This document shows positions 16,842 through 52,645 of a stretch of DNA of 64,000 nucleotides, in pieces. The stretch comes from a virus (lineage: Duplodnaviria > Caudoviricetes). The notes beneath the pieces are model-generated. The model saw nothing but the letters and a program-made list of their open reading frames with translations, made no database searches and was not told the DNA's origin. The position numbers and the translations under genes were made by a program. Location of the stretch: IMG/VR virus record IMGVR_UViG_3300027986_000008, positions 1 to 64,000 of that record, one strand, 5' to 3'. Positions within the stretch are counted from its first letter, which is position 1. Each line of letters opens with the position of its first letter.

Positions 16842-17555
16842 ATGGGTGGTTCCTCGTTGGACGAAATTCCGGCAGGAAGGGCCGAGAAGAAGGAACGAAA
16901 GTACGAGAACGGCTTCGAGAGAGCCTACCGTATGGCTGTTCAGTCACAAGATTTCGAATTAGCCTTGGGAATGCGAAAGAAACTCAACGGAAAGAAAATC
17001 GTGTATGCAAGCTCTAGAAGAAAAGGAATAGTGATGGATCACTCCGACGTCTTCCTGGTTCTCTCTGAGATGATTCGGAAGTCCGCCGAGGTAGAGTATC
17101 CGTCCGTTCCGACGTTAAAGCTCCGTTGCTTGATCGTATCGTTCGCTCTCTTCGATTGCTCTCGAAAGCTCGGAATAACCGGAGCAAAGCTCATCGGAGG
17201 ATGGTATCGCTTTGAGCCTCCACCGACCGGCAGGCCGGTTTTCGGGGACCAATCCTGGATTCAAGTTGCGAAGATGTATCGAGATGAAAAGGACCGTCAC
17301 GCCTGGGTTGAGTACGACGAAAAGATTTGGGATTTAACGAGAACCCAGTACGGAAACTTTCCCGATGTCTCTATCGCGACGGTCCCGAACCCTCACTATA
17401 TCGCAGATTGCATATCGATGGACGGAGAACTCGTTCGTCATCTTCTTCAGTCATGCGGAAACGACGGTCCCGGAGAAGCCTTCCGAATATCCAGCCGAGT
17501 TATAGCTGAATTTGGTGCGCTAGGCGGGATTCGAACCCGCAACCAAGGAGCTTAG
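16842..17555 (+). CDS. Hypothetical protein with transglutaminase/papain-like motif; start uncertain (alternative 17034)
   Basis: C..VS.AL...HAWVEYDEKIWDLT; 3' end overlaps the antisense tRNA. Confidence 0.5.
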   Translation: MGGSSLDEIPAGRAEKKERKYENGFERAYRMAVQSQDFELALGMRKKLNGKKIVYASSRRKGIVMDHSDVFLVLSEMIRKSAEVEYPSVPTLKLRCLIVSFALFDCSRKLGITGAKLIGGWYRFEPPPTGRPVFGDQSWIQVAKMYRDEKDRHAWVEYDEKIWDLTRTQYGNFPDVSIATVPNPHYIADCISMDGELVRHLLQSCGNDGPGEAFRISSRVIAEFGALGGIRTRNQGA

Positions 17556-17590
17556 ATTTCCCTGCTCTGACCAGTTCGAGCTACTAGCGC
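17513..17590 (-). tRNA. tRNA with CUA anticodon (amber-reading)
   Basis: GCGCTAG/CTAGCGC-A-CCA acceptor; GCTC/GAGC D arm; anticodon loop ATCTAAG; GCGGG-TTCGAAT-CCCGC T arm. Confidence 0.9.
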
Positions 17591-18089
17591 TAATCACGAT
17601 AGAAATTGGTTCCGCGGGAAGGGTTCGAACCTCCGACCTCTCCGAGGCTTTAAGGGCTTCGGATCGCTCTGCCGACTGAGCTACCGCGGATCGATTGAAC
17701 TCGACCGGCCTCCAGAGCCGGTAATTCTTCAGCGCCTGCTTCCTCTCTCGATCGAGAGGCTCCGTGATCAATGACGTGAAGCCGAGACCTCCGTCCGGCT
17801 CGATCCACGCGAAGTACTCGATACCGGCATCGACGAGCTTCTGCTTCGCCTTCGAGAGAGACCGCTCGTCCGGAACTCCGACCACGACGAGGTTCGGAAC
17901 TCCGTCGATCTCGCTCCAGGAAGCGAGCGTGAGAGATGCATGGTTGGATTGAACGATCTGATTCGCCAGAGTCATGTCCTGACGCACGAAGAGGAAAACG
18001 TAACGGTCGGATGGATTATCGTGGAGGTCTTGATCGATCTATCCAGAGAGACCGACCCGCTGAACTTCTTCCGTAGCTAAAATTGCCAA
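17520..18089 (-). CDS. Pth2-like peptidyl-tRNA hydrolase with in-frame TAG at codon 17 (18039-18041); frame continues through both tRNAs
   Basis: YVFLFVRQDM...QIVQSNHA, LVVVGVPDE..L, WIEPD, TSL..EP match the Pth2/PTRHD1 pattern. The only upstream start-type codons (TTG 18089, ATT) precede the TAG. Confidence 0.75.
17607..17690 (-). tRNA. Atypical tRNA with extended anticodon arm and UUA at the loop centre (ochre-reading)
   Basis: TCCGCGG/CCGCGGA-A-CCA acceptor; normal D and T arms; arm TCCGA-A-GC-[CCTTAAA]-GC-C-TCGGA. Confidence 0.8.
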
Positions 18090-22391: not shown

Positions 22392-23675
22392 ATGATAGCC
22401 TCATCTCCTCCGGCTTCCTCTCGTCCTCCGAAGCTCCGGCCTTTCGGACGGAAGGCCCACGAGTTTGCCTTCCGGCTTCCGATCGAGGATGCGTGGCTGA
22501 ACATCCTCTGCGGAGAGGTCCGCTCCTCGAAGACCTGGAGCACCTTTCCGAAGATCGTGATGCTCTGCAAGTACGAAGTCGAGGGTGATCGCGTCCTCTT
22601 CGGCAAGACGAAGGAATCGATCTATCACAACATCCTGACGGACCTCTTCGATATCGTAGGGACGAGAGGCTACACGTACAACCGGCAGAGCGGAGAACTT
22701 GACCTCCTCGGCTCGAAGTGGAGAGTGATCGGAGCGAACGACGAGAGGTCTGAGCAGATGATTCGCGGCTCGACGGTCGGGGTGGCGGTGGGAGACGAAT
22801 TGACGCTCATCCCCAAATCCTTCCTCATGATGCTCCTCGGCCGCATGTCGCCGGAGGGATCGAGGCTCTACGGCACGACGAACCCGGACGTTCCCACCCA
22901 TTATCTGAAAGAGGAGATCATCGACAACAAAAGGTTCACGCACGGCCTCCGCGGAGCTGACCTGAACTACATAACGTTCACGATGGACGACAACCCGAAC
23001 CTCGACCCGGCCTTCAAGGACAAGATCAAGCGGAGCTACACGGGCGTGTTCTACAAGCGGTTCGTCCTCGGCCTTTGGGTGATGGGGACCGGCTCGATAT
23101 ACGCCGACGTGCTGACGGATGACGCGTGGTACGACGACGCGTCGAGGCCGATTAACCTCTACTCGCGGCACGGCCACGTCGATCACTTTCTGGCGCTCGA
23201 CTACGGAACGGCGAACGCGCTCGCGTGCGGAGACTACTACGACGACGGCTTAACGATCTGGTGCGACGATGAGTTCTACTACGACAGCCGCATCGAAGGG
23301 AAGCAGCTTACGGACGGTCAGTATGCGGACCGGATCGTCGAGTGGCTGGCGCGAAAGGGATTTCACCAGAGGAACTGGCCGGGAGTGATCATCGATCCAT
23401 CGGCCGCGAGCTTCCGCGCGGAGCTTATCTCCCGCGGCTTCTACGTGGGCGACGCGGTGAACGACGTGAGCGACGGCATCCGGAGAACGTCTACGATGCT
23501 CGCGAACAAGAAGCTCCGGATCAACAAGCAGAGATGCGTGAACGGTGTGAAGTTCATGCAGAGCTACTGCTGGGAGGAAGGCAAGGAGAAGCCGAAGAAG
23601 GAGGGCGACCACTGGCCGGACCAGTGCCGGTACGCGATCGCCTCGAAGGTTCCGGATTGGAGGTTAGCAGCATGA
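22392..23675 (+). CDS. terL: Terminase large subunit, PBSX family
   Basis: GEVRSSKT Walker A variant, VGDE Walker B, TTNPD, DNP.L, LDYG, IDPSA and DH..D..RY motifs. Confidence 0.95.
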   Translation: MIASSPPASSRPPKLRPFGRKAHEFAFRLPIEDAWLNILCGEVRSSKTWSTFPKIVMLCKYEVEGDRVLFGKTKESIYHNILTDLFDIVGTRGYTYNRQSGELDLLGSKWRVIGANDERSEQMIRGSTVGVAVGDELTLIPKSFLMMLLGRMSPEGSRLYGTTNPDVPTHYLKEEIIDNKRFTHGLRGADLNYITFTMDDNPNLDPAFKDKIKRSYTGVFYKRFVLGLWVMGTGSIYADVLTDDAWYDDASRPINLYSRHGHVDHFLALDYGTANALACGDYYDDGLTIWCDDEFYYDSRIEGKQLTDGQYADRIVEWLARKGFHQRNWPGVIIDPSAASFRAELISRGFYVGDAVNDVSDGIRRTSTMLANKKLRINKQRCVNGVKFMQSYCWEEGKEKPKKEGDHWPDQCRYAIASKVPDWRLAA

Positions 23676-24853: not shown

Positions 24854-25348
24854 ATGAGCGACGTAGAGCTTGAGATTCCTCTCCTCCTCGCGAACGAGTC
24901 GGATGAGGTAATTCCGGATGACAACGGTCGCGGGCCTTCGAAGTACGGCGTAACGCTTGAGACCTACCGATTTATAAGCAAAGATCCGGCCATCCCTCCG
25001 GAGGCCATCTGGGACTTGACGCTTGATGAGGCGAAGAACTTCTATCGCCTCTGGTGGAAGCTCTACCACATCGGCTTGATCGAGGACCAGGCTCTCGCGG
25101 GAAAGTTGATGGACTTCGGATTTAACGCCGGACCGGGCCTGGCTACGAAGATCCTCCAGAGGATCGTCGGAGTGAAGGATGATGGGATCTTAGGGCCGGA
25201 AACCGCGGCTTCCGTAAACGGTCGAGATCCGGCGGCTCTACTGGCTTCATTTAAGCAGGACATCGTCACTCACTACGAGGCTTTGGCCAGCTCGAATCCT
25301 TTACTTCGAAAGTACCTCGAAGGCTGGAAGAAGAGGGCGCTGGCGTGA
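24854..25348 (+). CDS. Endolysin, GH108 with peptidoglycan-binding C-terminus
   Basis: E....D..G.SKYGVT, D.GFNAG, LQR.VGV.DDG.LGP.T, GW..R. Confidence 0.9.
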   Translation: MSDVELEIPLLLANESDEVIPDDNGRGPSKYGVTLETYRFISKDPAIPPEAIWDLTLDEAKNFYRLWWKLYHIGLIEDQALAGKLMDFGFNAGPGLATKILQRIVGVKDDGILGPETAASVNGRDPAALLASFKQDIVTHYEALASSNPLLRKYLEGWKKRALA

Positions 25349-25518
25349 TCCCATATTCCTCTATAGCTAAAGCCTCTCCGGAAGCTTGCAGGCGATATGC
25401 CGATATGAAACCTCAAGCGTGCAATAGAGGACCTCCGGCTCGCATCAACCTGGCTTCCGGCAATCACCATATTCTCTGCCATGGCCATCGTATTCCTCGT
25501 GGTCTCCTTACTCTTCCG

Positions 25519-26331
25519 ATGATCTTTCCGTCGTGGCATAGGTTGGTCGAGCAGTATCGGAAGCGAATGAATCGCCTGCTCTCTCCGCAGTTGTTCGACC
25601 TCATAAACCATCCGGAACTAGTCCAGTCCGCGAAGTTCCAGAAGGCCGCGTACGACGTGGCGCGCATGATGGCGGCAGAGGTTGCGGCCGTCAATGAGAA
25701 GTCCTGGAGAGCGGCTGCGATGAAGTCGAGCCGCGCGCGGAAAATCTTCGAGGCTCTCCGTGAAGAGATCGAAAGCCAGCATTTCGGCCACCATCTCTCG
25801 GCGATAGCCAAGCAAAACGCCGAGCTGATCTCCTCCGTCCCATTGGAGATCGGACAGAAGATAACGGCGCGGGCTGCTGAACTGAGGCTCCGCGGCGCTC
25901 GGTCCTCCGAGGTCGATAAATATATCCGGAAGCTCGCTCCCAAGCTCGTAGACAGCCGGATCAGGCTGATAGCGCGCAATGAGGTGAGCAAGTCCGAGAC
26001 GGATCTGACGAGGGAGCGCTCGGAGCACATCGGCATCGACTGGTATCAATGGGCCTCCTCTCGCGACTCTCGCGTCCGGGCCTCTCACAAGAACATGGAC
26101 CGAGTGCTAGTGGCCTGGGGCGATGCTCCAGATCCGGAGACGCTCGCCGGAGAGAAGTCGAGCGCCGGTCACTATCATGCCGGGCAGACGTACAATTGAA
26201 GGTGCGTTGCCCTGCCGGTGGCAGCGCTCGATGAGGTGAAGTGGCCAGCACGCGTCTACTCCGGTGGATCGATCAAGACGATGACGCGAGCGGCGTTCGT
26301 CAAGAAGTATGGCGAGAAGATAGCGGCATGA
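25519..26331 (+). CDS. Minor head protein (MuF / SPP1 gp7) with in-frame TGA at 26197-26199
   Basis: LIARNE, YQW.SS.D.RVR.SH, HAGQTYN*RC.ALP; the frame continues 43 codons past the TGA. Confidence 0.85.
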
Positions 26332-26503
26332 TGATCTGCACCAATTCCCCCCGTCTCCTCCGAGCGGGTGGAACTCCAGCCAGCGCAGCCGAGGTGGCAA
26401 ATCTCGGGGGAGGTGGTCGTCGAGGTTGCGCGCGGCTGGATCGTTTTGAACTGGTAAGGCCGCTGGCGGCATAAACTTTAAAACGAAGGACGGGGATATC
26501 TGG

Positions 26504-27104: not shown

Positions 27105-27362
27105 GTGAGCATGAACGTTCCTCTCGCCTCTCTCAATCCGGTTATCTATCCCAACGGGATGATCGTCTTCGATTGTCCGAACTGCGCGGGAGACGACTTT
27201 CATAAGATCCGCGTGCCGGTAACGAAGGCGACGGCGAACCGGCACGGCTGCTGGTGGAAGATGTCCGGATCGTACGAAAACATCACGCTCGCTCCGAGCA
27301 TCGACGCCGGTTGCTGGCACGGGTACGTGACGAACGGCATGGTAACGCAGGTGAACGGATGA
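27105..27362 (+). CDS. DUF6527-like Zn-binding protein
   Basis: F.CP.C...W..SG...ITLAPSI...CWHGYVTNG. Confidence 0.7.
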   Translation: MSMNVPLASLNPVIYPNGMIVFDCPNCAGDDFHKIRVPVTKATANRHGCWWKMSGSYENITLAPSIDAGCWHGYVTNGMVTQVNG

Positions 27363-29947
27363 GCGCATTCCCGGTCATCTATCCCAGCGGCCTCGGCTGC
27401 CGCGTTAAACGGAAGACTCACGGCACCTGGGCGTCCCAGGGCGACGCCGACGCGTTGAAGGCGGGTCTAGTCCATCCAGGATTATCGGGAAGAATCTCGG
27501 CCACAGACTTCTTCGTCAACGCGGCCGCGCGCATTGGCTGGGGAACTCCCAGCGTGCCCGAGGGAGCGGACTATAAACTCGTCCGCCTCTCGAATAACTA
27601 CTGGTTGATGATCACCCTGTATCGCAACCACTGGATCACGAGGCGGATCATCGACGGTCCGGCCACGGACATGGTGCGAGCGTGGCCGAAGATCGTATCG
27701 GAGATGGACCCAGGCGACATCTCTAAGGTCGATCGACTGATTCAGCATACGCAGACGCGCCGCAACATACTCACGACGTTGAAGTGGGCGCGACTCTTCG
27801 GAGGAGCCGGTGCGCTTATCGTGATCGATGGCCACGAGGGAATGCTGGATAAGCCGCTCGACCTCGATACGGTAGAACTCGGAAGCTATCGAGGGTTGAT
27901 TCCTTTCGACCGGTGGACTGGCATAGTTCCGAGCGCCGAGATTTCGACGGACGTCACGAAACCGAGGGAGTTTAACCTTCCGGTGAGATATGACGTGACT
28001 CCGATCGGCGGTGGATCGCGGTTCACGGTCCACGCGAGCCGCATCCTCCGGTTCTGCGGACCCGAGGTGCCGTCGCCGGAATACCAGGCTCAGCAGTACT
28101 GGGGAATCTCCGTCATCGAGCCAGCATACGAAGAGATGAGGAAGCGCGACAACATGTCGTGGAACATCCTCGCCATGACGTTCCGCGCCTCGATCATCGC
28201 GATGAAGGATAAGAACCTCGCCCAAATGCTCTCCGGTGTCTCGATGAATCAGAACGCTCTCGTCCAATTCCAGGCGCGGATGCAGGCTATGAACGAGCTG
28301 CTGAGCAACCAGAGCATGCTGATCGTTCCGGAAGAGGGCGGCATGGATCACATCAGCTACTCCCTGACCGGATTCGCCGACGTCTACCAACAGTTCCAAC
28401 TCGACATCGCCGGTGCTACTGGAATGACGGTGACGCGGCTATTCGGCCGCACGATCACCGGCCTCGGGCAGACGAACGACGCGGATGAGCGCCTCTACGA
28501 AGAGCGGATCGCGATGGATCAGGAGGAGCAACTCCGACCGCAGATCGAGAAGCTCTATTCCGTGATCATGATGAGCGAGGTCGGAAAAGTCCCCGATGAC
28601 CTCCAGTTGAAGTTCCCTAGCGTCCGAGTCCTCTCCGAGGAGGAGAAGTCGAAGATCGCGACGGACTTCACGGCTAACGTCACCGGCATGGTGAATGCCG
28701 GAATCATGAATAAGCCTCAGGCTCTGAAGGAGATTCGTCAGCAGAGCGACCTGACCGGTTTCGGCTCGAACATCACCGATGAGGACGTCGAGCAGGCCGA
28801 GAGAGATGAGGAGTTGGGGCTGGCCGAGCCTCTCGGCGAGGAGGTCCGCAAGGAAGAGGTCCGCATGGGGGCCGACCCGGATGCGGATGAAGCCGAGAAG
28901 CACGATGCTGAGTCGATCGCGAATCTCGGTAAGGCCGGAGCAAAGGACTCGAAGGTCATCGACCACATCTCGTTTCATGGCGTTCCGATATCGATCGAGC
29001 ACAAGGCCGGGACTCGCCGCACGATCAGGAATGATCGCGGTGAGGTCGTATATGACCGCCTGCTTTCTCACGATTACGGCTTCATCGACAACACGACCGG
29101 TAGGGACGGAGACGAGGTAGACGTCATCCTCGCGAATCCTCCGGCCGCAAGCACCCGCAGCATATTCATCGCGAGCATGATCGACCTCGGTCCGGACGTT
29201 GAGAAGCGCAGCGACGAGGATAAGATCCTGATCGGTTTCCGCAATCTCGACGAGGCCCGCCGCGCATTCCTTTCGATGTATCCTCCGGAGTTCCTCGGCG
29301 GAATCGGACGGATGACGACGGACGAGCTGAAGGCTATCGTCGAAGATCCGAAATCGAGCGATCCGAAAGATCCTTTTGCATTTGCCTTCGATTCTGGTTT
29401 AACGGATGACGAACGCCGATTACAAAGACTGACGGATCGATTTGAGGAATCCGAGCATCCGCGCGAACGATCTGGGCAGGAAGCAGGACAGTTCACCAGC
29501 AAAGGCAGTGGAGGAGGCGAAGGTTCTTCGAAATCCGGTCACCAAAGCGAACGTGTTCAGCGCGCTATCCAGAGCCAAGTCCGCACCGGCCAACATGAGC
29601 AAGCTATCGCGGATCGAAGCGAAAAGGTTCTCAGCAAGCATATCGGCATCCCGCGCACGCGTGACAATTCCGCGTTCGACCTCCGCAACGATGAATATGG
29701 CATCGAAGTGAAGACTCTCGTGAATGGAAAGAACGAGAAGATCACGATGTCGAAAGCCGCGCTTGGACGTAAGCTAGCGGAGCAGCGAGCGGACGGAATC
29801 AAAGCATTTACCGTCGTTGTAGATAGGCGTTCTGGTGGCTTGACTGGAAACGCAACGTACTATGTGAAGGAAGGACTTGGTTCCTTCCGCGTATCCAGTA
29901 TGAAGAAGATGTCTATCTCTGATCTTAGGGAATTGGTATCGCGATGA
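27359..29947 (+). CDS. Portal protein (DUF1073 type) fused to a PPase-like domain and a C-terminal PD-(D/E)XK nuclease
   Basis: LYR..W..RRIID.PA.DM, WARLFGG, WG.S, RLFG..GL portal motifs; DYGFI..T.GRDGDEVDV and DEDK; HPR..GQF; AFDL...IEVKT. Confidence 0.88.
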   Translation: MSAFPVIYPSGLGCRVKRKTHGTWASQGDADALKAGLVHPGLSGRISATDFFVNAAARIGWGTPSVPEGADYKLVRLSNNYWLMITLYRNHWITRRIIDGPATDMVRAWPKIVSEMDPGDISKVDRLIQHTQTRRNILTTLKWARLFGGAGALIVIDGHEGMLDKPLDLDTVELGSYRGLIPFDRWTGIVPSAEISTDVTKPREFNLPVRYDVTPIGGGSRFTVHASRILRFCGPEVPSPEYQAQQYWGISVIEPAYEEMRKRDNMSWNILAMTFRASIIAMKDKNLAQMLSGVSMNQNALVQFQARMQAMNELLSNQSMLIVPEEGGMDHISYSLTGFADVYQQFQLDIAGATGMTVTRLFGRTITGLGQTNDADERLYEERIAMDQEEQLRPQIEKLYSVIMMSEVGKVPDDLQLKFPSVRVLSEEEKSKIATDFTANVTGMVNAGIMNKPQALKEIRQQSDLTGFGSNITDEDVEQAERDEELGLAEPLGEEVRKEEVRMGADPDADEAEKHDAESIANLGKAGAKDSKVIDHISFHGVPISIEHKAGTRRTIRNDRGEVVYDRLLSHDYGFIDNTTGRDGDEVDVILANPPAASTRSIFIASMIDLGPDVEKRSDEDKILIGFRNLDEARRAFLSMYPPEFLGGIGRMTTDELKAIVEDPKSSDPKDPFAFAFDSGLTDDERRLQRLTDRFEESEHPRERSGQEAGQFTSKGSGGGEGSSKSGHQSERVQRAIQSQVRTGQHEQAIADRSEKVLSKHIGIPRTRDNSAFDLRNDEYGIEVKTLVNGKNEKITMSKAALGRKLAEQRADGIKAFTVVVDRRSGGLTGNATYYVKEGLGSFRVSSMKKMSISDLRELVSR

Positions 29948-32458: not shown

Positions 32459-32779
32459 ATGGCACTTTCTGGATTCGCTGTATCTGGAGCGGTGACGGTG
32501 GCGGTTCCTCCTCCGGTGGCGACCGGATTGGGAGAGCAGCCCGCAACGTTGGCTCCGATCCAACTCTCGACGATCGGCTCTGGTGCGACTCTCCTGGTGA
32601 CGAATATGGGCAGCAGCCCAGTGTTCGTGGCACTCGGTAGCTCCTCGGTCGCCGCAACACCACAGTCCGTGGTCGTTCCGTTAAACTCATCGCTGCCTCT
32701 GACAATCGGATCGAATACCTACGTGGCGTTGCTGGGAGCGCACGCGGGAAGCCAAGTTAACCTCGCGATCGGAACATAA
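32459..32779 (+). CDS. Small beta-rich virion protein
   Basis: GGAGG SD; LVTN.G..PVFV pattern. Confidence 0.6.
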   Translation: MALSGFAVSGAVTVAVPPPVATGLGEQPATLAPIQLSTIGSGATLLVTNMGSSPVFVALGSSSVAATPQSVVVPLNSSLPLTIGSNTYVALLGAHAGSQVNLAIGT

Positions 32780-32782
32780 TCC

Positions 32783-32983
32783 ATGCCTTTGACCGAGAAG
32801 GGCCGGGAGATCATGAGTTCGATGAAGAAGGAGTATGGAGAGAAGGAAGGCCAGCGCGTATTCTACGCGAGTACGAACTCCGGTCGCATCACCGGAGTCC
32901 ACGATGACGCCTCTGCCGATGCCTTCCGTAGTCGAATGCACCAAGCTCTCGACAGATTCCTCGATCTCGTCAAGGCTCGCTGA
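32783..32983 (+). CDS. Small head-associated protein
   Basis: MPLT.KG..IM..M..EYG...G..VFYAS.N.G.I.G motif. Confidence 0.65.
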   Translation: MPLTEKGREIMSSMKKEYGEKEGQRVFYASTNSGRITGVHDDASADAFRSRMHQALDRFLDLVKAR

Positions 32984-32989
32984 ACTCTG

Positions 32990-34543
32990 ATGGACTACTA
33001 CGTCGAAGAGATCCTCTCTGACAACATCGGACGGACGCCGGAAGGCTATCTGATCTGCCGCGACGTCGTTCTCGGCAGAACGGGCTTCCAGACGTACTCC
33101 GTCGGAGAGTTGCTCGATGCTGGCATCGAGCGCAACGAGCTTGAAGGACTTGGCATAGGCATGTCTGATCCGCGTTCGCCGGTCGACGTGTACCGCAGCG
33201 CAGATGAGGTCTTCTCTCCCGAGACGCTGGCATCAGCTCAGGGGAAGAGCGTGACTAACGATCATCCTCCCGGCGATCAGTACGTCAAGCCGGAGAACGT
33301 GGCGACGCTCGAATTCGGGCACGTCCAGGATGTCCGCCGCGGCGACGTTCCGTTAGAGACCGGAGATTGGCCGATGATCGGAGACCTGATCATCAAGCGC
33401 GAGCCTCTGATCTCTATGGTCGAGTCCGGACGGAAGCGCGGGACTTCTTGCGGATATAGTTACGAGCTTGACCGTGTCGGCGACAAGCTCGTACAACGAA
33501 GCATCATAATCAATCACGTAGCAGTTGTGCAGAAGGGCCGAGCAGGAGCAGAGGCCCGGATCAATGACTCAGCGCCTCCTGAATCGCATGAGGTGTTGGG
33601 AGACAAGGCCGGAACTAGCTCCACCGGCGAGAAAAAGGAGAAAGCCAAGATGGCAAAACCCAAAAACGTGTCGTGGGTCAATTATCTCCTCGGGCGCGGC
33701 CTGAAAGCGATCGCAGCGGACGCCGAGCCGGAGGAACTCGCCGAAGCGATGGACGCCATGAAGAAGGCGGACGACGACTTCCCCGAGAACCTGAAGAAGG
33801 AGAAAGAGGACCGCGAAGCGGAAGACCGGAAAAAGGCAGACGATGCGAAGCGCGCGGAAGATGCCAAGAGAGCGGAAGACGCAAAGAAGGCCGAGGATGC
33901 CAAGAGGGCAGACGACGCCAAGAAAGCGGACGACGCAAAACGAGCCGAGGATGCGCGAAGAGCCGAAGACGCGAAGCACGGATTTGACCGCGCGAAGCTC
34001 CACGACTCTCTCGACAAGATGATCGACCGGATGGTCCAGAAATCCAGGGACGATCACCAACTCGAAGAGGTTCCCGTGGAAGGCGAGGATGCAGATCTCG
34101 CGATGCTGCGCGAACTCCTCGACGAGTACTTCGGGGAAGAGCAGCAGGAGCCGGAGCATGCCGACGACGCACGTCCGCGAGCCGCCGACTCTCGCCGTGG
34201 CGGAGACGGCTTCGTACGGCCGGTTCCGGAGACTGGAGACCTGGTCGAGATGCCGCGACGCGGCACCGATCGGATGGCTCTCCTGAACGAGCTTCGCCCG
34301 CTCGTCGTGAAGTCGAAGGACTCGGCCATAAAGAAGGCGTTCAACGCCATCTTGAGAGCTGAGACGCGCGGCTCCGGCCGAGGAGACGGAACGTATGGAG
34401 GTTTCGCCTCCGCGGCACGGACGCTGGCTCATGACACCGGCTATGATCCGGAGTCTCGCACCGACAGACGCTCCGAAGGAGTAGACAAGCTCCAGGAAGC
34501 ATATGACCGGGAGCATTCCGGAAAGAAAGAGGGAGGTAAGTAA
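32990..34543 (+). CDS. Prohead protease/scaffold (DUF2213 type)
   Basis: TPEGYL, RTG.Q.Y, EVF, T.DHP, SCGY, NHVAVV..GRAG; charged C-terminal scaffold. Confidence 0.9.
   Translation: MDYYVEEILSDNIGRTPEGYLICRDVVLGRTGFQTYSVGELLDAGIERNELEGLGIGMSDPRSPVDVYRSADEVFSPETLASAQGKSVTNDHPPGDQYVKPENVATLEFGHVQDVRRGDVPLETGDWPMIGDLIIKREPLISMVESGRKRGTSCGYSYELDRVGDKLVQRSIIINHVAVVQKGRAGAEARINDSAPPESHEVLGDKAGTSSTGEKKEKAKMAKPKNVSWVNYLLGRGLKAIAADAEPEELAEAMDAMKKADDDFPENLKKEKEDREAEDRKKADDAKRAEDAKRAEDAKKAEDAKRADDAKKADDAKRAEDARRAEDAKHGFDRAKLHDSLDKMIDRMVQKSRDDHQLEEVPVEGEDADLAMLRELLDEYFGEEQQEPEHADDARPRAADSRRGGDGFVRPVPETGDLVEMPRRGTDRMALLNELRPLVVKSKDSAIKKAFNAILRAETRGSGRGDGTYGGFASAARTLAHDTGYDPESRTDRRSEGVDKLQEAYDREHSGKKEGGK
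33830..33976 (+). repeat. Degenerate 18-bp tandem repeat (KKADDA/KRAEDA, about 8 copies)
   Basis: Visible in the translation of the scaffold region. Confidence 0.85.
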
Positions 34544-34548
34544 CCACC

Positions 34549-35559
34549 ATGCCAGCACCAGTGAGTTTCGGCCAAGCCCTGCCCGTCCTCGGGCTGAACA
34601 ACGGCTTTCCGGGAACGTTTTCCCGGCTCCACCCAACGATCGCGTCTCGGCAAGTACTCTCGACGACGCCTAACAACCTTCTATTCGGCGCTCCGTGCGT
34701 CATCATCGCGGACTCGCAAGGAGGAACCGTCCAGTCCGTGGCAGACTTCATCGCCGCGGCTGCCGGTAATTCCGGCAGCGTATACGGACAGTTCGGCGGC
34801 ATCGCGGTGCGCGAGGTTAAGACGGTCCTCACGTACCAGAACGGCCTAACTCCAGGAACGCAGCAGACCGGCTTTTTCGCTCCCGGCGAGATGGCCGATA
34901 TCCTGGAGGCCGGGTCGGTCTGCGTCCCGATCGTTGAAGGCACTCCGGTCAGTCAGGCTCCGGTCTACGTTCGCGTGTTCGCGAATACCTCGACCGGAAC
35001 ATTCACTGCCAACACCGCAGTCGGCAGTAACGTGCTCTTATCGGTGTCATCCTTCACCGGAGTCCAACTCGGCCAGGGATTGAGCGGCACTGGCATTCCG
35101 TCCGGTACGATCGTCGGAGCCGTCAACACTACGGCGAGCACCATCACGATGGTCTTCCCCGGTGGCCTTCCCGCTCTCGCAACCGCGGCCGGAACCGGCA
35201 CTACTGTAACCTTCTCGAACACCGTCACAGCCGTCGGAGACCTGGAGGCGGAAGATGACGTTGCCGCCACCACGACCATGACGGCGGTGGCTGCGTCCGC
35301 AAACATTACGGTGGCCTCGGCAACCGGAATTAACGTCGGCCAGATCGCAGTCGGAGGATCGATTCCTCCGGGGACCGGAGTTACCGTCGTGAGCGGTACG
35401 ACTATCACTCTCTCGGTGGCTGTGCCGACGGTTGCTGCGCCCGGTACTGCCGTCACGTTCCATAACACCCTGGCTTTGCCGCTGACGGTGTTCCGGACCG
35501 GCAACCTCGACGCCAACTTCGTGGCGGAGATCACGCTGAAGGCTCGCGTAGCGGCCTAA
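34549..35559 (+). CDS. Capsid decoration/cement protein with inserted beta domains
   Basis: Between protease and MCP; G.PG, G.AVR and VYVR motifs. Confidence 0.75.
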   Translation: MPAPVSFGQALPVLGLNNGFPGTFSRLHPTIASRQVLSTTPNNLLFGAPCVIIADSQGGTVQSVADFIAAAAGNSGSVYGQFGGIAVREVKTVLTYQNGLTPGTQQTGFFAPGEMADILEAGSVCVPIVEGTPVSQAPVYVRVFANTSTGTFTANTAVGSNVLLSVSSFTGVQLGQGLSGTGIPSGTIVGAVNTTASTITMVFPGGLPALATAAGTGTTVTFSNTVTAVGDLEAEDDVAATTTMTAVAASANITVASATGINVGQIAVGGSIPPGTGVTVVSGTTITLSVAVPTVAAPGTAVTFHNTLALPLTVFRTGNLDANFVAEITLKARVAA

Positions 35560-35589
35560 GTCAATAAAGGAAAGGAAGATCAGACAATC

Positions 35590-36696
35590 ATGTTTCGCCA
35601 ACCACGCTTTGCTTCCAATACCGATCGCGACATCGCCGCTCTCGCTGCCGTACTCGGGCACCGCGACTTGAACGGACGCCGCGGCGCTCGGGCTGCCGAC
35701 GCGCTCCGCATCCGCGCCTTTGACGCCGGAGGAGCCACCGGCCTCGCTTGGCTTGAATCTCAGTTGGAGCTGATCGATCCGAATCTGGTCGAGCCGCTCC
35801 AGCAGTATTACCATCCCAAGGCTATCACAGTGAAGACCGGCGGTGGCTTCGTCGAGTTCATCTCGGCGTTCGCCTCGAACTATGCCTCCACCGGCAACCA
35901 GTTCTACGGCCTCCAGGGCACCGCGAACACGGACATCCCGGAGATCCAAGCCGACGTGCAGAAGGGCGTCTGGAAGACCTTCAACTGGGCCTCGGCGATG
36001 ACTCTCCGGTATCTGGACCTCCAGAGACTCGAAGCATCCTCGCGGCTCGGCCAGCCCGCCCCGTTCTCTCTTCAGGACCTTCTGAAGAAAGCCTGCACCG
36101 CGAATTGGAACAAGGCGCTCGACTACGTGACGTTCAAGGGATTTCTCGGCCAGCCGGGAATCGTCAACAACCCGAACGTCGCGGAGTTCGTCGCCCCGCT
36201 CGGTGCCGGAGGCTCCGCTCTGTGGTCGAAGAAGACGCCTCAGGAGATCCTGAATGACGTCAACCTCGCGCTCAACACGGTAGCGAGCAACGTCTCCTAC
36301 GCGATCGACGGCGGAATGCCGAACCGGATGCTCATCCCGTTCACGCACCACGCCTACATCACCAATCCATTCACCCTCTCCGGAGTCGGTAACGGATTCA
36401 CCTCGATCAAGGACTACGTCGAGAAGAATTGCGTCGCCGCCGGAGCGACCGACTTCCGCATCGACCGCATCCCGAATCCGTGGATCTCCGGCCAGGGGGC
36501 CAGCGGGACGGACCGCGGAGTCGTCTATCGCGATGACGAGGAGGACCTCTACCTCCAGATCACGCAGCCGATGACTCAGGGCATGAGCGTGCCGACGACC
36601 CGCAACGGTGGATCGTACGAGACCATCTACTACGGGTGCGTCTCTCAGGTCATATGGAAGCGCACGATCACGGCAACCTACATCGACGGCATCTAA
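35590..36696 (+). CDS. Major capsid protein (DUF2184 type)
   Basis: LESQLELIDP.L.EPL, G..N.P.V, W..KTP.EIL.D.N, terminal YIDGI. Confidence 0.92.
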   Translation: MFRQPRFASNTDRDIAALAAVLGHRDLNGRRGARAADALRIRAFDAGGATGLAWLESQLELIDPNLVEPLQQYYHPKAITVKTGGGFVEFISAFASNYASTGNQFYGLQGTANTDIPEIQADVQKGVWKTFNWASAMTLRYLDLQRLEASSRLGQPAPFSLQDLLKKACTANWNKALDYVTFKGFLGQPGIVNNPNVAEFVAPLGAGGSALWSKKTPQEILNDVNLALNTVASNVSYAIDGGMPNRMLIPFTHHAYITNPFTLSGVGNGFTSIKDYVEKNCVAAGATDFRIDRIPNPWISGQGASGTDRGVVYRDDEEDLYLQITQPMTQGMSVPTTRNGGSYETIYYGCVSQVIWKRTITATYIDGI

Positions 36697-48272: not shown

Positions 48273-50396
48273 GTGAAGAACGTAATCCAGGAATATCTCG
48301 TCAAGATCGGCTTCGATTCAGACGACCCGTCTCTGCGAAAGATGACGGGTACGCTCGAACACGTCGACAAGTCCGTCACCTCTCACACCGGAGGCATGAC
48401 GAAGAGAATCCTGGAGTTCCAAGGTACGATCGTCGGAGCATTCACCTCCGTCTCCGCGGCGATCATCGGTACGGTCGATAAGGTCGCCATGGCCGATCAA
48501 TCATACCGGCTCCTCGGCCTCCGGATGTTGATGACGACGGACAGCGCGCGCAAGATGGACATGATCACCAAGGCTCTCAGAGCAGACCTTGCGGAGATCG
48601 TGTGGGACCCGGAGCTTCATGCGCGAGCAGTTCAGATGGCTCAAGATATCGATCGGTGGAAGGAGTCTCTCGGAGGAGACTTTGAGGAGAAGATGCGCGG
48701 ACTCCGCGATATCCGATTCGAGATCTCCCGGCTTTCTATAGCTGCCAAGTTCCTCTCGATGAGCTTCGTATCTCACCTTGCCGAGAGACTAGGTATCGGA
48801 GACCTGGGAGCGAAGCTCCGTCAGTTCGTCGACGGATTAGATCCGGAGAAGATCAGCAAGTTTGCCGATATGCTCGCCTCTTATGCCGTTCCGGCACTGA
48901 AGGCGACGTGGACCATGATCACGCAGATGGTCGAGGTGCTGAAGTCTGCCGGATTGATGTTCACGAATTTCGTTGGCCTCCTCTCCGGAGACCGATCGAT
49001 TCAAGGAGCCGAGTTCAGCTTCGAGCACTTGGCTGGGGCTATCGCTCACGTCGGCTCGTGGATGTCTCGGCTGTTCGGATGGATCGCTCACGCAGAGGAG
49101 ATGCTAGCTCACTTCGCTTCCGCGCTATCTCTGACCTTATCCGGAAAATTCGGAGAAGCCGCCACAGAATTCAAGGCCGGTCTAAAGGACTTGACCGGTG
49201 GAAGCGGCTTACTCACCGGGATGGTGGGAGGAGCGGGAATCGGAGGATTGATCGGAACTCTTCACGGAGGAGCGGCCGGAGCAGCGGCTGGAGCCTTCTT
49301 GGGGCCTCCTGGAGCGATCGTAGGGGGACTCATAGGAGCAGGGACCGAGGCGACGGTTGGAACTGTTGCCGGGAGTGCTATCGGAGCCGGAATCGGAGCA
49401 GCTCTCGGAAAATTAAGGAAATGGTCCGGCATCGGCTCTACCGAGCAGCAACCCTCCCCAAGCCAGTCTTCAGTGGCTCCGGCCATCAAGCCTGCTCCGA
49501 CCGTTCCGACTCCGGTAATATCCGGACCGCCGCAGCTGGAATCTCCGACCTTTCGCATCCTCGTTGCTCCTCCGGAGCAGCCGACAGCCGTTAAAAGTAC
49601 TCCGGTTGAGCCGGAGAGGACGTATACGGCTGCGGAAGCCGTGCGGACCTCCGGAACTACGGACGGTCTGGTCGATCGAATATCGGCTGCTATAACGCGG
49701 TACGAAGCCGGTACGAAGCCGAATCCGATCAGTATCAGGAACAACAATCCTGGGAATCTGCGGCCTTGGTGGAAAGGCTCCGGTCCGTTCCCCGTCGACG
49801 AGCACGGCTTCATCAAGTTTCCGGATTGGGATACCGGCATGCGCTACCTGCGAAAGCAGGTCGAACTCAACGCATCACGAGGACTGACTCTGCGTGAGTT
49901 TTTCGGAGGAAAACGAGGCGTCTATTCGGGATATGCTCCGGCCGCTGACCGGAACAAGCCGGAGACGTACGCAGCTACGGTCGGAGATTGGGTCGGCATA
50001 GACGTTAATACTCCGCTTAACCGTCTGATGAACTCATACTCTTCGGGCCTCGAAGCCTCACGTGCTCCGGCTCAAAAGATCTCTCAGTCTCCGATCGCCG
50101 CATCCTCTTTCGTCGCTCCAGACGATCGCCGAAATATTCAAGGTCCTAGCCCGATTCCGGCCCTGGATAGAGATTGGAGGTCCGTCATGGAAGACTTCCA
50201 GAGGCCGATCCCCTCATCATCTAATTCGAACGTTTCGAATAACCGTCAGGAGGTCCACGTGGACGTCGGCGGAATCCACATAATGAATCCTGGCGCAAAT
50301 CCGGCTGAGATCAGCCGCGCCGTCGAGGATGGAGTGAAGCGTGCCTTAGACGGCCAGCTTTTGTCGGACATGACGCAGCTCTCTCCTCAGTTCTAG
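48273..50396 (+). CDS. Tape measure protein with lysozyme-like domain
   Basis: I.EYLV.IGF N-terminus; helical and Gly-rich regions; RNNNPGNL...YAP..D.N. Confidence 0.88.
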   Translation: MKNVIQEYLVKIGFDSDDPSLRKMTGTLEHVDKSVTSHTGGMTKRILEFQGTIVGAFTSVSAAIIGTVDKVAMADQSYRLLGLRMLMTTDSARKMDMITKALRADLAEIVWDPELHARAVQMAQDIDRWKESLGGDFEEKMRGLRDIRFEISRLSIAAKFLSMSFVSHLAERLGIGDLGAKLRQFVDGLDPEKISKFADMLASYAVPALKATWTMITQMVEVLKSAGLMFTNFVGLLSGDRSIQGAEFSFEHLAGAIAHVGSWMSRLFGWIAHAEEMLAHFASALSLTLSGKFGEAATEFKAGLKDLTGGSGLLTGMVGGAGIGGLIGTLHGGAAGAAAGAFLGPPGAIVGGLIGAGTEATVGTVAGSAIGAGIGAALGKLRKWSGIGSTEQQPSPSQSSVAPAIKPAPTVPTPVISGPPQLESPTFRILVAPPEQPTAVKSTPVEPERTYTAAEAVRTSGTTDGLVDRISAAITRYEAGTKPNPISIRNNNPGNLRPWWKGSGPFPVDEHGFIKFPDWDTGMRYLRKQVELNASRGLTLREFFGGKRGVYSGYAPAADRNKPETYAATVGDWVGIDVNTPLNRLMNSYSSGLEASRAPAQKISQSPIAASSFVAPDDRRNIQGPSPIPALDRDWRSVMEDFQRPIPSSSNSNVSNNRQEVHVDVGGIHIMNPGANPAEISRAVEDGVKRALDGQLLSDMTQLSPQF

Positions 50397-50408
50397 GACA
50401 AAATCCCG

Positions 50409-51206
50409 ATGGGAACTCCTTCCGTAACGGCTCTCTCGGCATTCAGCCAAATCTATTACGCAAGCGGCTCTGGGTTTGCGAACTCTATTCTCGGAGCGTT
50501 CGCATATCGTCCTCCGCAATGGGTTAAGTCTCAACCGGCTCTAGTTATGACGGTAGCCGATCAGACCTCCGGAACCATAACGGCCTACGTCTTCGACGGC
50601 ACTGAGAGAGCGGAGCATGAGCAGAGAGCCGTCATCACCCAGAATCCGATTCAGACCGGCGCGTCTCTCTCAGACCACATGTACACCCTTCCTCCGGTCG
50701 TCACCGCCAACATCCTGATGAGCGACTGTATGCAGTCCTTCATCGCTGGACAGTTCGCTTCCGGTCCGTCAAGGAGCGTATCGGCATACCAAACTCTCGT
50801 CGATCTTCAGCAGAATCGGAAGCCGGTCTCGATCTCCACGCGGTTGAAGCAATACGACAATATGATGATCTCTTCGATCATCACGGAAGAGACGAAGGAT
50901 ACCCTCTATGGACTGAGGGCGACGGTCACTTTCCAGAAAATCCTCACGGCCTCAATCGAGATCGTATCCTCGACGGTAAACTTCAACGTCAACCCTCTCA
51001 CTTCCGAATTTCCGCAGCAGACCGGAGCCACGATCGGAGGTCAAGCGCAATCGACTCAGGTTCCGACTGGGATCTTCAACCAGAACAACGTATCGGGTTT
51101 GCTCGCGACAACGTTGGCATCCGTTCCGAAGGTTCCGGGAGCCGGAGTATGGACGAGCACCGGTAGCGGAGTTCTCACGCAAATGGTGTCTGGATTGGGA
51201 CACTAA
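50409..51206 (+). CDS. Dit-like / tube initiator protein
   Basis: E.H....IT.NPI.TG...SDH, AYQ.L..LQ, Y.NM.I. Confidence 0.75.
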   Translation: MGTPSVTALSAFSQIYYASGSGFANSILGAFAYRPPQWVKSQPALVMTVADQTSGTITAYVFDGTERAEHEQRAVITQNPIQTGASLSDHMYTLPPVVTANILMSDCMQSFIAGQFASGPSRSVSAYQTLVDLQQNRKPVSISTRLKQYDNMMISSIITEETKDTLYGLRATVTFQKILTASIEIVSSTVNFNVNPLTSEFPQQTGATIGGQAQSTQVPTGIFNQNNVSGLLATTLASVPKVPGAGVWTSTGSGVLTQMVSGLGH

Positions 51207-51541
51207 TGTCGGCTCAACTCGTCCCGCTCACCATCGCTCCAAACCAGAGTTTTCCGGTGAGCCTCAGCGTCAACGGAAACGTAATCATCCTGAATCTCAA
51301 GTTGAGATATAACAGCCAGGGTCAGTTCTGGACCCTCGACATCGCGGACAGGCTGAACAATGCTCTCATCTCCTCGGTGCCTCTAATCACTGGAGTGTGG
51401 CCCTCCGGTAATATCCTCGGTCCGTTCGAGTACATGCAGATCGGCTCGGCATTCATCATAAACGCGAACGGAGCGCTCACCGATTGGCCGGACGACTCTA
51501 ACCTCGGGAGCGGATTCGTCCTGCTCTGGGATGACAATTAA
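51206..51541 (+). CDS. Small baseplate protein
   Basis: PNQ.F...L, W..DI, PL.TG. Confidence 0.75.
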   Translation: MSAQLVPLTIAPNQSFPVSLSVNGNVIILNLKLRYNSQGQFWTLDIADRLNNALISSVPLITGVWPSGNILGPFEYMQIGSAFIINANGALTDWPDDSNLGSGFVLLWDDN

Positions 51542-51544
51542 CCC

Positions 51545-52645
51545 ATGGCTTCTCCGGCTCAACCATCTCCGGCCCAGGCTGTTCCGTTCTTCGGCCGCGC
51601 TTGGTCGATCGGAATCGATACTGCTGACGGTAGCCATTACGTGGTTCGCAGCTCCGTCGGAAAGGGGGAAGACCCTCTCCGCGTCAGGTTCTCGGTGAAC
51701 ACCTTCATGCTTCTTGCGTACTGGACCGCCGATGTGACGATCTATAACATGAGGTCGGACGTTGCGCAGAGCATCATAAGCCAGGGATCTATCGATCTCC
51801 AAAACTTTTGGAAGTATAACCAGAACGTCCAATTGGGGGACTCTCTGACGTTGAGTGCTGGTTATAGCGGAGACTCCGGAACGACCTTCGATGCGGATGC
51901 CAATCTTCTCTTCTCCGGGCAGGTCATCCAGCCTGTGTGGACGAGGGAGAGGGTTGTCGATTTCTGCTTGACGCTTCGCTGCGTCACCGGTCTCCTTCAG
52001 GATGCCTTCAACTATGCCAGTTTCCCTCTCTCTAAGGGAGCGACTGCTTACGACACGGTAACGAAGCTCTGCAACCAGTGCAGCATTTCTCAAGAAAATA
52101 TCGATCCGGCCTCGAAGGCCGCTCTTACTCAGTCCAAGGCACCTCGCGGACAAGTCGTATTCGGTCGTCCATACGAGACCATCCGCCAGATCGCGAAGCA
52201 GAATAACCTCTCCGCATGGATAAGTCCGAACGGGCTGAACATTAGATCATTTGATCCGAAGAAGCCACCTCCAGATCCGGACTATGCGTATGGACCGGCA
52301 AATTTAAGCGGAGCCTATACGACGTCCGGAACCCAACAGGGAATCGTGAAGAATACACTGCTCGGAACTCCGGAGCAGACTCAGAATGGCGTGATCTTTC
52401 GAGTTGAGCTTGACTCCTCCGTCAAGATCGGAGACACGGTTCAGCTGGCTCCTGGAACTCTCATAAGCCCGTTTCCGGTTCAGATCGGAGCATTGCCTCC
52501 GGTGCCGAGCCGAAATGGAATTTACGTCGTAGCTGGCGTCAAGCATTCCGGTGATTCGAGGGGACGTGGAGATGATTGGGTGACGGAGATAACCGGAGTT
52601 ACGATGGACTTCTTCGCAGATTTCTTACAGGCGCACAATGGGTAG
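51545..52645 (+). CDS. Baseplate hub protein
   Basis: A.VTIYN, L.AGY, G.PEQT, Y.V....H.GDSRG..W. Confidence 0.85.
   Translation: MASPAQPSPAQAVPFFGRAWSIGIDTADGSHYVVRSSVGKGEDPLRVRFSVNTFMLLAYWTADVTIYNMRSDVAQSIISQGSIDLQNFWKYNQNVQLGDSLTLSAGYSGDSGTTFDADANLLFSGQVIQPVWTRERVVDFCLTLRCVTGLLQDAFNYASFPLSKGATAYDTVTKLCNQCSISQENIDPASKAALTQSKAPRGQVVFGRPYETIRQIAKQNNLSAWISPNGLNIRSFDPKKPPPDPDYAYGPANLSGAYTTSGTQQGIVKNTLLGTPEQTQNGVIFRVELDSSVKIGDTVQLAPGTLISPFPVQIGALPPVPSRNGIYVVAGVKHSGDSRGRGDDWVTEITGVTMDFFADFLQAHNG

What the first reader, a model, noticed from the sequence alone, without database searches (positions are those of the whole stretch)
26180..26331. UGA at the conserved Cys of MuF/gp7 followed by a SECIS-like hairpin: possible phage structural selenoprotein
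Seen: HAGQTYN-TGA-RCVALPV... with 43 more open codons. Known: MuF/gp7 domains end in an (N)CRC motif, Sec typically replaces Cys, and a bacterial SECIS lies immediately 3' of the UGA. In E. coli fdhF it is an 11-nt spacer then a stem with a GU-containing loop. Here the UGA is followed by about 12 nt, then CUGCC-GGU-GGCAG, with an alternative stem GCGUUGCC/GGCAGCGC. Inference: a URC motif decoded by host Sel machinery. With the UAG and UAA tRNAs, all three stop codons would then be recoded in this phage.
Basis: partly seen in the sequence, partly recalled or inferred. Interest (0 to 1): 0.75.

Follow-up and report, generated by a model that had tools for sequence, protein, structure and literature searches.

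The report
Probable selenocysteine codon in phage MuF
A complete 102-kb soil phage has a UGA "stop" exactly where its MuF head protein needs an invariant cysteine. Coding continues behind it, and a small RNA hairpin of the type its likely hosts use to insert selenocysteine follows, so the protein is probably a selenium-containing virion protein, a kind not described for phages in the papers I could search.

Summary
TGA 26197-26199 replaces the first Cys of the invariant N-C-R-C motif of a 270-aa MuF/gp7 protein (ATG 25519 to TGA 26329). The 43 codons behind it align with full-length relatives right to their C-terminal "AA".

For selenocysteine:
- A distant MuF clade carries TGA, never TAA or TAG, at one or both of these Cys codons: 4 distinct DNA sequences and about 22 truncated protein clusters. 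All four keep a hairpin that their Cys sisters have lost.
- The likely host phylum (Acidobacteriota) has SelA in 162 of 201 genomes, and its SelD is itself a selenoprotein.
- The hairpin here (12-nt spacer, CUGCC-GGU-GGCAG) fits that phylum's SelD SECIS pattern. 16 of 23 SelD sites pass my descriptor, against 1.2% of phage positions and 1 of 57 Cys-codon sites in relatives.

Against:
- No relative in the phage's own subfamily has TGA (0 of about 280).
- The stem is minimal, the host is unidentified and no raw reads were available.
- The phage otherwise uses the standard code, so "all three stops recoded" is overstated.

Selenocysteine about 0.68; a recent nonsense allele about 0.2. This scan has noted the same MuF-UGA pattern in at least 8 other genomes.

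The parts
25519..26331 (+). MuF/SPP1-gp7-type head morphogenesis gene: 270 codons when TGA 26197 is read through, with its final stop
   Evidence: PF04233 E 5e-13 across the TGA. phrog_324 head morphogenesis E 1e-43. End-to-end alignment with relatives of 267-271 aa. AlphaFold2 model pLDDT 92.5, with residues 230-264 folded as three strands and a helix.
26197..26199 (+). In-frame TGA at the first Cys of the invariant N-C-R-C motif; proposed Sec codon
   Evidence: Relatives carry TGC or TGT here: 76 of 80 IMG/VR loci, all 58 protein homologues and 140 of 148 representatives, inteins included. The same letters are in the Logan contig at depth 26.
26200..26211 (+). 12-nt spacer between the UGA and the hairpin
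   Evidence: In SelD and FDH Sec genes of Acidobacteriota the apical loop starts 17-20 nt after the UGA; here it starts 17 nt after.
26212..26224 (+). SECIS-like hairpin CUGCC-GGU-GGCAG: 5-bp stem, GGU triloop, -5.5 kcal/mol. It can extend to 26209-26227 across one C.C mismatch.
   Evidence: It passes descriptor D2, which 16 of 23 SelD Sec sites pass. D2 is met at 1.2% of genome positions (0.21% for a GGN triloop), 2 of 70 other gene-end TGAs, 1 of 57 and 2 of 113 Cys-codon controls, and 4.2% of synonymous resamplings.
26200..26328 (+). 43 conserved codons after the UGA (R-C-V-A-L-P...M-T-R-A-A-F...A-A), the C-terminal part of the MuF fold
   Evidence: The in-frame coding score is 0.24, higher than the upstream part at 0.18. 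It aligns with relatives to the terminal AA. The closest partial relative, P0034, has a nearly identical C-terminus.
26329..26334 (+). Tandem TGA TGA that ends the full-length protein
25349..25518 (+). Probably non-coding leader between the endolysin gene and the MuF start; the ORF caller's GTG 25345 start is unlikely
   Evidence: Coding score -0.09. No relative has an N-terminal extension.

Best explanation
The UGA at 26197 is a selenocysteine codon. Inferred mechanism: when a ribosome of a Sec-competent host (most likely an Acidobacteriota bacterium) reaches the UGA, host SelB carrying Sec-tRNA(Sec) is held by the small hairpin 12 nt downstream (26212-26224, GGU triloop). Sec is inserted and translation runs on for 43 codons. 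The result is a 270-aa MuF head-morphogenesis protein with a U-R-C motif in place of the family's invariant C-R-C. The phage supplies only the codon and the hairpin; it has no tRNA-Sec or SelB of its own.

Shown here: the TGA sits at the invariant Cys; the downstream frame is conserved; another MuF clade has TGA-only replacement of these Cys codons plus a hairpin specific to the TGA forms; Sec machinery is present in the candidate host phylum; the hairpin fits that phylum's SelD SECIS pattern.

Inferred: that this particular UGA is decoded, who the host is, and what the Sec does. A metal or redox site formed with C229 and H190 is a guess.
For: 1. Position. The TGA is the first Cys of N-C-R-C, invariant in 53 aligned homologues. 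Inteins insert at exactly this Cys in 13 of 148 representatives and about 10 loci, which marks it as a functional hot spot.
2. Downstream frame. It is intact, conserved and predicted as part of the fold.
3. Sequencing error is unlikely. The site has depth 26 and an independent assembler gives the same letters. CheckV estimates the genome as 100% complete.
4. Family-level Sec signature. An IMG/VR pattern scan found L089 and L095 with TGA at the same Cys. In that clade 20 protein clusters at 51-82% identity end exactly before the first Cys, and 2 end before the second. The DNA shows U-R-C (L215, L227), U-R-U (L217) and C-R-U (L219), always TGA. All four keep the hairpin UCCCUG-AGUU(A/G)-CAGGGA, which the Cys sisters L218, L220 and L230 lack. 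In three of the four the same gene ends in an ordinary TGA about 18 codons later (L227 ends in TAA), so TGA is not globally reassigned there.
5. Host capacity. The closest terminase (48%) and MuF relatives lie in Acidobacteriota MAG contigs. SelA is over cut-off in 162 of 201 genomes of that phylum and in 3 of 4 MAGs that hold related phage genes. SelD carries one in-frame TGA in nearly all of 51 of 61 genomes.
6. Hairpin. The SelD SECIS has an 11-14 nt spacer, a GC-rich stem of 5-10 bp and a GGN triloop. Descriptor D2 is passed by 16 of 23 SelD sites and by the window site. It is met at 1.2% of all genome positions (0.21% for a GGN triloop), 2 of 70 other gene-end TGAs, 1 of 57 distinct Cys-codon sites in the same subfamily, 2 of 113 TGC MuF sites and 4.2% of synonymous resamplings.
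Against: - No second sequence in this phage's own subfamily has TGA at this codon: 0 of 76 IMG/VR loci, 0 of 58 proteins, 0 of 148 representatives. By the field's own rule (PMC1976440) it is therefore a selenoprotein candidate, not a confirmed one.
- No relative closer than 68% identity was found, so conservation of the TGA in this lineage cannot be tested.
- The stem has the minimum length seen in the SelD set (5 bp, -5.5 kcal/mol; only 2 of 16 passing SelD hairpins are that short). I wrote the descriptor after seeing both the window and the training set, so its ratios are optimistic.
- Generic fold energy is not unusual, and no Rfam SECIS family matches even at E 10.
- The host is inferred only from relatives at about 50% identity in MAGs. 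The IS1595 transposase matches Alphaproteobacteria as well as Terriglobia.
- Some relatives have D-R-C, so this Cys is not strictly indispensable.
Confidence: 0.68

Rival explanations
1. A recent nonsense mutation (TGC or TGT to TGA) fixed in this population. The phage makes a 226-aa MuF that lacks C-R-C and the last 43 residues. It is either defective (persisting as a prophage or plasmid-like element) or tolerates the loss, and the hairpin is coincidence.
For: This is the only TGA in its subfamily. One transversion from a Cys codon gives TGA. The hairpin is minimal, and about 1-4% of comparable sites pass the same descriptor by chance. From my own knowledge, not checked here: in SPP1, gp7 is not absolutely essential.
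Against: The downstream 43 codons show no decay and have the highest coding score of the gene. The genome is otherwise intact, 88% coding and 100% complete by CheckV, at depth 26 with no variant contig. The hit lands on exactly the codon that another MuF clade demonstrably writes as TGA and is followed by a host-type SECIS hairpin. That joint coincidence is improbable.
Confidence: 0.2
2. Leaky or programmed UGA read-through without selenocysteine. A near-cognate tRNA (Trp or Cys), or a host UGA-reading tRNA, inserts a standard residue at low frequency. This gives a minor full-length MuF beside a truncated form, as in the Qbeta A1 read-through protein.
For: MuF is a low-copy virion protein, so a small read-through fraction could suffice (inference). 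The downstream frame is conserved. UGA followed by A is not a strong terminator in E. coli (my own knowledge, not checked here).
Against: The position is an invariant Cys, where Trp would be unlikely to work. In the other clade the TGAs sit only at the two Cys codons and are tied to a conserved hairpin, which points to Sec rather than generic leakiness. The phage's two tRNAs read UAG and UAA, not UGA.
Confidence: 0.07
3. A sequencing or assembly error; the real codon is TGC or TGT.
For: There is a single source sample. Only contigs could be laid on the stretch, not raw reads, and contigs drop rare variants.
Against: Word depth is about 26, and a second assembler gives identical letters over the whole 1856-base stretch with no alternative contig. 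The same phenomenon occurs in unrelated assemblies of other phages.
Confidence: 0.03

Closest known systems
Bacterial selenoprotein genes with an in-ORF SECIS read by SelB (prototype E. coli fdhF; bSECIS consensus of Zhang and Gladyshev, as cited in PMC12013277 and PMC1976440)
   Same: An in-frame UGA is paired with Cys in homologues. Coding continues after it. A hairpin with a G-rich apical loop sits a fixed short distance 3' of the UGA. Decoding depends on host SelA, SelB, SelC and SelD.
   Different: The gene belongs to a phage and encodes a head-morphogenesis (virion) protein, not a cellular oxidoreductase. The Sec sits in a U-R-C motif of unknown chemistry. The hairpin is at the small end of the known range.
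Sec-containing SelD and formate dehydrogenase genes of Acidobacteriota
   Same: The spacer is 11-14 nt, the stem is GC-rich and the loop is a GGN triloop (SelD) or a GUU or GGUCU loop (FDH). One SelD site (L409, AGUCC-GGU-GGACU, loop starting 17 nt after the UGA) has the same architecture as the window's CUGCC-GGU-GGCAG.
   Different: Most SelD stems are 7-10 bp; the window's is 5 bp, or 7 with a mismatch. These are host genes, and the phage-host link is inferred.
MuF clade of low-GC uncultured phages with U-R-C, U-R-U and C-R-U motifs (L089/L215, L217, L219, L227; P0060-P0108)
   Same: It is the same protein family with the same two Cys codons. Only TGA is used, the C-terminus is conserved after it, and a hairpin follows.
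   Different: It is only distantly related to the window's subfamily. Its hairpin has a different sequence, loop (AGUUA) and spacing (22-28 nt). There the TGA is conserved across many diverged sequences; here it is a singleton.
Phage Mu gpF / SPP1 gp7 head-morphogenesis proteins (Pfam PF04233)
   Same: The domain, the length, and the genomic setting between terminase and portal are the same.
   Different: Described members have Cys at both positions of C-R-C.
Stop-codon-recoded phages with suppressor tRNAs (TAG or TGA reassigned genome-wide; Borges et al. 2022, from my own knowledge)
   Same: The phage carries tRNAs with CUA and UUA anticodons.
   Different: There is no genome-wide reassignment: all three stops end genes and no domain crosses a stop. 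The UGA event is a single site that depends on its context.
Qbeta A1 read-through protein (UGA read by tRNA-Trp; from my own knowledge)
   Same: A phage structural protein is made by decoding a UGA.
   Different: That is generic leakiness at the end of the coat gene. It is not at a conserved Cys and has no SECIS.

Membership tests
Bacterial selenoprotein gene (Sec-UGA with in-ORF SECIS) | In-frame TGA aligned with Cys in homologues (a Sec/Cys pair) | tested here: met
   The TGA is at C227 of the invariant C-R-C. Relatives have TGC or TGT.
Bacterial selenoprotein gene (Sec-UGA with in-ORF SECIS) | Conserved, translatable sequence continues after the TGA | tested here: met
   43 codons align to the C-terminal AA of relatives, with coding score 0.24 and a folded model.
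Bacterial selenoprotein gene (Sec-UGA with in-ORF SECIS) | Stem-loop immediately 3' of the UGA with G in the apical loop at the right distance | tested here: met
   CUGCC-GGU-GGCAG, with the loop starting 17 nt after the UGA. It passes a descriptor met by 16 of 23 SelD Sec sites of Acidobacteriota and by 1-4% of controls. The stem is minimal, and no Rfam SECIS family matches.
Bacterial selenoprotein gene (Sec-UGA with in-ORF SECIS) | [quoted passage not shown] | tested here: inconclusive
   Not met within the window's own subfamily (0 of about 280). Met at family level in a distant MuF clade.
Bacterial selenoprotein gene (Sec-UGA with in-ORF SECIS) | Host encodes SelA, SelB, tRNA-Sec and SelD | tested here: inconclusive
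   The host is not identified. In the candidate phylum SelA is found in 162 of 201 genomes and SelD in 51 of 61, mostly as a selenoprotein. SelA is present in 3 of 4 MAGs with related phage genes. The phage itself has no tRNA-Sec or SelB.
Bacterial selenoprotein gene (Sec-UGA with in-ORF SECIS) | Selenium incorporated at the UGA position | not testable with these tools
   This needs 75Se labelling or mass spectrometry.
Phage_Mu_F / SPP1 gp7 head morphogenesis (PF04233) | Match to the family profile over the gathering score, including the C-terminal H...C-R-C region | tested here: met
   50.1 bits against a cut-off of 29.6, profile 13-111 of 112. phrog_324 E 1e-43.
Genome-wide stop-codon reassignment (codes 4, 25, 15 or similar) | Many genes interrupted by the reassigned stop, and low coding density under code 11 | tested here: not met
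   88% coding under code 11. Genes end in TGA (71), TAA (41) and TAG (20). No PHROG domain crosses the tested same-frame stops.

The most novel reading that the evidence does not exclude
MuF/gp7 is a phage selenoprotein family. Several unrelated phage lineages, this soil phage among them, hijack the host's SelB/SECIS system to put selenocysteine into a conserved C-R-C site of a minor head protein that is packaged in the virion. Virion assembly or infectivity would then depend on the host's selenium status and Sec machinery.
Probability: 0.6. Interest if true: 0.8.

Novelty: new variant of a known kind. Interest (0 to 1): 0.72.

Why it matters
Selenocysteine decoding is well known in cells and in a few eukaryotic viruses. 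I found no paper describing a bacteriophage selenoprotein, and a 2026 review of the prokaryotic selenoproteome does not contain the words phage or virus.

If this is real, it has several consequences:
- A virion protein depends on a host trace-element pathway.
- Gene callers systematically truncate these MuF genes. The database holds about 22 such truncated clusters in one clade alone.
- A Sec codon becomes a host-range marker, because only Sec-competent hosts can build full-length MuF.
- The unknown chemistry of the invariant C-R-C site of MuF becomes testable, because Sec-for-Cys swaps usually mark redox or metal-binding catalytic residues.

Tried and rejected
- Only one run (a soil metagenome that may be the source) holds the stretch, and only as contigs. 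A raw-read pile-up was therefore not possible.
- No Rfam SECIS or other family matches 26100-26400 at E up to 10. The only row is a chance-level Peptidase-S11 match.
- A generic MFE z-score and a loose bSECIS-like rule do not separate this site from background. I replaced them with a descriptor derived from Sec genes of the candidate host phylum.
- A covariance model from the SelD/FDH SECIS set was not built. MAFFT could not put FDH and SelD in one register, and the SelD loops fall in two spacing classes.
- Foldseek and VIA searches with the whole model returned only helical-bundle look-alikes of the N-terminal half. They say nothing about the C-terminal C-R-C domain. No solved MuF structure was found by sequence.
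- Genome-wide recoding was rejected.
- A link between the phage's CUA and UUA tRNAs and this UGA was rejected, because those anticodons do not read UGA.
- Host search by single-protein scan of genome contigs found nothing for MuF, and alignment A1 was too diverse to search with. The IS1595 transposase gave mixed Terriglobia and Alphaproteobacteria matches at no more than 75% identity.
- No look-alike of this gene exists among the scan's earlier windows.

Full report
**Setting.** The window is the first 64 kb of a single 102,276-bp virus record. CheckV estimates it as 100% complete, GC is 57%, and it comes from a soil metagenome. The genes around the finding are a large terminase (22392-23675), a GH108 endolysin (24854-25348), the MuF gene, and a portal fused to a pyrophosphatase-like domain (27254-29947). 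The genome has only two tRNA genes, with anticodons CUA and UUA. It has no tRNA-Sec and no SelB.

**The observation.** Pfam PF04233 matches straight across the TGA. The real start is ATG 25519. Relatives begin there, and 25345-25518 has a negative coding score. Read through, the gene gives 270 residues, which align end to end with 267-271-aa relatives at 50-59% identity, up to the shared C-terminal "AA". In 53 aligned sequences only eight columns are invariant, and three of them are C227-R228-C229. The TGA is C227. An AlphaFold2 model (pLDDT 92.5) folds residues 230-264, which lie after the TGA, as three strands and a helix. A second assembler reproduces the stretch exactly at depth about 26 with no variant contig. 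Only contigs were available, not raw reads.

**The phage is not recoded.** Under the standard code I obtain about 132 genes and 88% coding density. Gene ends are TGA (71), TAA (41) and TAG (20). Neighbouring ORFs that share a frame across TAA, TAG or TGA (32779, 32981, 35557, 50394, 51539) are separate genes, because no PHROG domain crosses the stops. The MuF TGA therefore needs a local explanation.

**The window's own subfamily.** No relative has TGA here. Of 80 IMG/VR loci, 76 have TGC (57) or TGT (19), three have Asp, and one is cut off. All 58 protein homologues continue with Cys. Of 148 representatives from a search of 1.84 billion proteins, 127 have C-x-C, 13 carry an intein inserted exactly at this Cys, a few have D-R-C, and none is truncated. 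No relative closer than 68% identity was found. Conservation of the TGA within this lineage therefore cannot be tested.

**The turn.** I scanned IMG/VR for DNA encoding H-x-G-x3-N-TGA-R-C-x3-P and got eight hits. Two were true MuF genes with TGA at the same Cys (L089 and L095). They share 4.4 kb at 100% identity but come from two samples, with GC 36-40%.

- A protein search with that gene showed 20 clusters, at 51-82% identity to the query, that all end at ...DGHPGxxx(N/Q), just before the first Cys. Two more end at ...N-C-R, just before the second Cys. Sister sequences continue N-C-R-C-x-A-I-P-V-I-P-E-L-Q....
- The available DNA shows four distinct sequences: U-R-C (L215, L227), U-R-U (L217) and C-R-U (L219). 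The stop is always TGA, never TAA or TAG, and only at these two codons.
- Three of the four genes end in an ordinary TGA about 18 codons further on, and the fourth in TAA.
- All four keep a hairpin UCCCUG-AGUU(A/G)-CAGGGA 22-28 nt after the UGA. The Cys-bearing sisters L218, L220 and L230 have lost it through Q-G to R-G, Q-Q or Q-L changes.

This is the standard comparative signature of selenocysteine, and it shows that this site of MuF accepts Sec. Notes of this scan report the same pattern in at least eight other genomes. I did not check those notes, and none concerns a look-alike of this gene.

**Could this phage's host decode Sec?** The nearest terminase relative (48%) lies in a 472-kb contig of an Acidobacteriota MAG. 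MuF relatives lie in Acidobacteriota and Limnocylindrales MAG contigs.

- SelA is present over its curated cut-off in 3 of the 4 MAGs that hold related phage genes, and in 162 of 201 sampled genomes of that phylum.
- SelD is present in 51 of 61 genomes and carries one in-frame TGA in nearly all of them, so the phylum routinely decodes Sec.
- Three unpublished genomes (G029, G054, G155) are among these tallies. Two of the 23 SelD sites (L398, L414) come from them. Leaving them out does not change the picture.

**The hairpin.** As generic structure it is unremarkable, and Rfam has no match. The Sec sites of the candidate host phylum, however, have a recognisable form. SelD has an 11-14 nt spacer, a GC-rich stem of 5-10 bp and a GGN triloop. 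Two FDH genes have an 11-nt spacer, a 7-8 bp stem and a GUU or GGUCU loop. The window has a 12-nt spacer, CUGCC-GGU-GGCAG, with the loop starting 17 nt after the UGA. That is the same architecture as SelD site L409.

My descriptor requires a loop of 3-5 nt that begins G then G or U, a stem of at least 5 bp, and a loop start 16-21 nt after the UGA. It is passed by the following:

| Set | Pass |
|---|---|
| SelD Sec sites of Acidobacteriota | 16 of 23 |
| The window site | yes |
| All positions of the phage genome | 1.2% (0.21% for GGN triloops) |
| Other gene-ending TGAs of the phage | 2 of 70 |
| Distinct Cys-codon sites of the window's subfamily | 1 of 57 |
| TGC-bearing MuF sites in IMG/VR | 2 of 113 |
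| Synonymous resamplings of the same peptide | 4.2% |

I wrote the descriptor after seeing the data, and the window's stem is the shortest it allows. I therefore take the support as a factor of roughly 15-40, not more.

**Weighing.** This exact codon is demonstrably written as a Sec codon elsewhere in the family. A random nonsense hit on this one codon is rare. The downstream frame is pristine, the genome is complete and reasonably abundant, the likely host phylum decodes Sec, and the hairpin fits that phylum's SECIS. I therefore put selenocysteine at about 0.68. A recent nonsense allele (about 0.2) remains possible: the case is a singleton, the hairpin is minimal, and the genome carries IS elements. 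Non-Sec read-through (0.07) and error (0.03) are minor. By the field's published criterion (PMC1976440) this particular gene is a selenoprotein candidate. The family-level case is stronger.

**Literature.** Searches for phage selenoproteins returned nothing relevant. A 2026 review of the prokaryotic selenoproteome never mentions phages or viruses. One paper reports predicted tRNA-Sec genes in huge phages without naming any selenoprotein (PMC10747093). PMC12013277 notes that SECIS-like structures become more frequent with GC content, which is why I relied on controls matched for genome and gene.

Noticed in passing
L056, L059, L067-L071, L075, L077, L078 (IMG/VR relatives); P0180, P0182, P0184, P0192 and others: An intein-like insertion (C-F-[TP]-G-[DE]... 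of about 310 aa) begins exactly between the conserved N and the first Cys of N-C-R-C, which is the codon written TGA in the window. 13 of 148 representatives of the subfamily carry it.
   Followed up: partly
L217/L224 and L219/L228 (uncultured low-GC phages): These MuF genes have TGA at both Cys codons (U-R-U) or only at the second (C-R-U). One hairpin apparently serves two UGAs that lie 6 nt apart.
   Followed up: partly
L045-L047; P0296, P0323: Some MuF relatives have Asp instead of the first Cys (N-D-R-C). This hints that the residue is a metal ligand rather than an obligatory nucleophile.
   Followed up: no
window 17607-17690 (-): The tRNA-like gene with anticodon UUA has C at position 33, a mismatched anticodon stem and a weak D arm. 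The neighbouring CUA tRNA (17513-17590) is regular. Both encode CCA.
   Followed up: no
G000 1-93 and 102184-102276: The first nucleotides of the record recur at its end, inside a 15-nt-periodic repeat (GCACCGCTCAGGTCG-like units); the repeat runs about 93 nt by position, of which exact matches of 30 and 50 nt were checked. This is either an assembly overlap of a circular or terminally redundant genome, or a repeat array. IMG/VR classes the record as linear.
   Followed up: no
L396-L422 (Acidobacteriota genomes): SelD is itself a selenoprotein (C-A-G-U-A-S-K) in nearly all sampled Acidobacteriota. Its SECIS is a GC-rich stem capped by a GGN triloop, in two spacing classes with the loop starting 17 or 20 nt after the UGA.
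   Followed up: partly
window 27254-29947 (+): The portal protein (PF06381) is fused at its C-terminus to an inorganic-pyrophosphatase-like domain (PF18823).
   Followed up: no
window 32459-34543, 34549-36696, 48273-51206, 51206-52645 (+): Several neighbouring late genes share one reading frame and are separated only by a TAA, TAG or TGA and a few codons. PHROG domains do not cross the stops, so they look like separate genes.
   Followed up: partly
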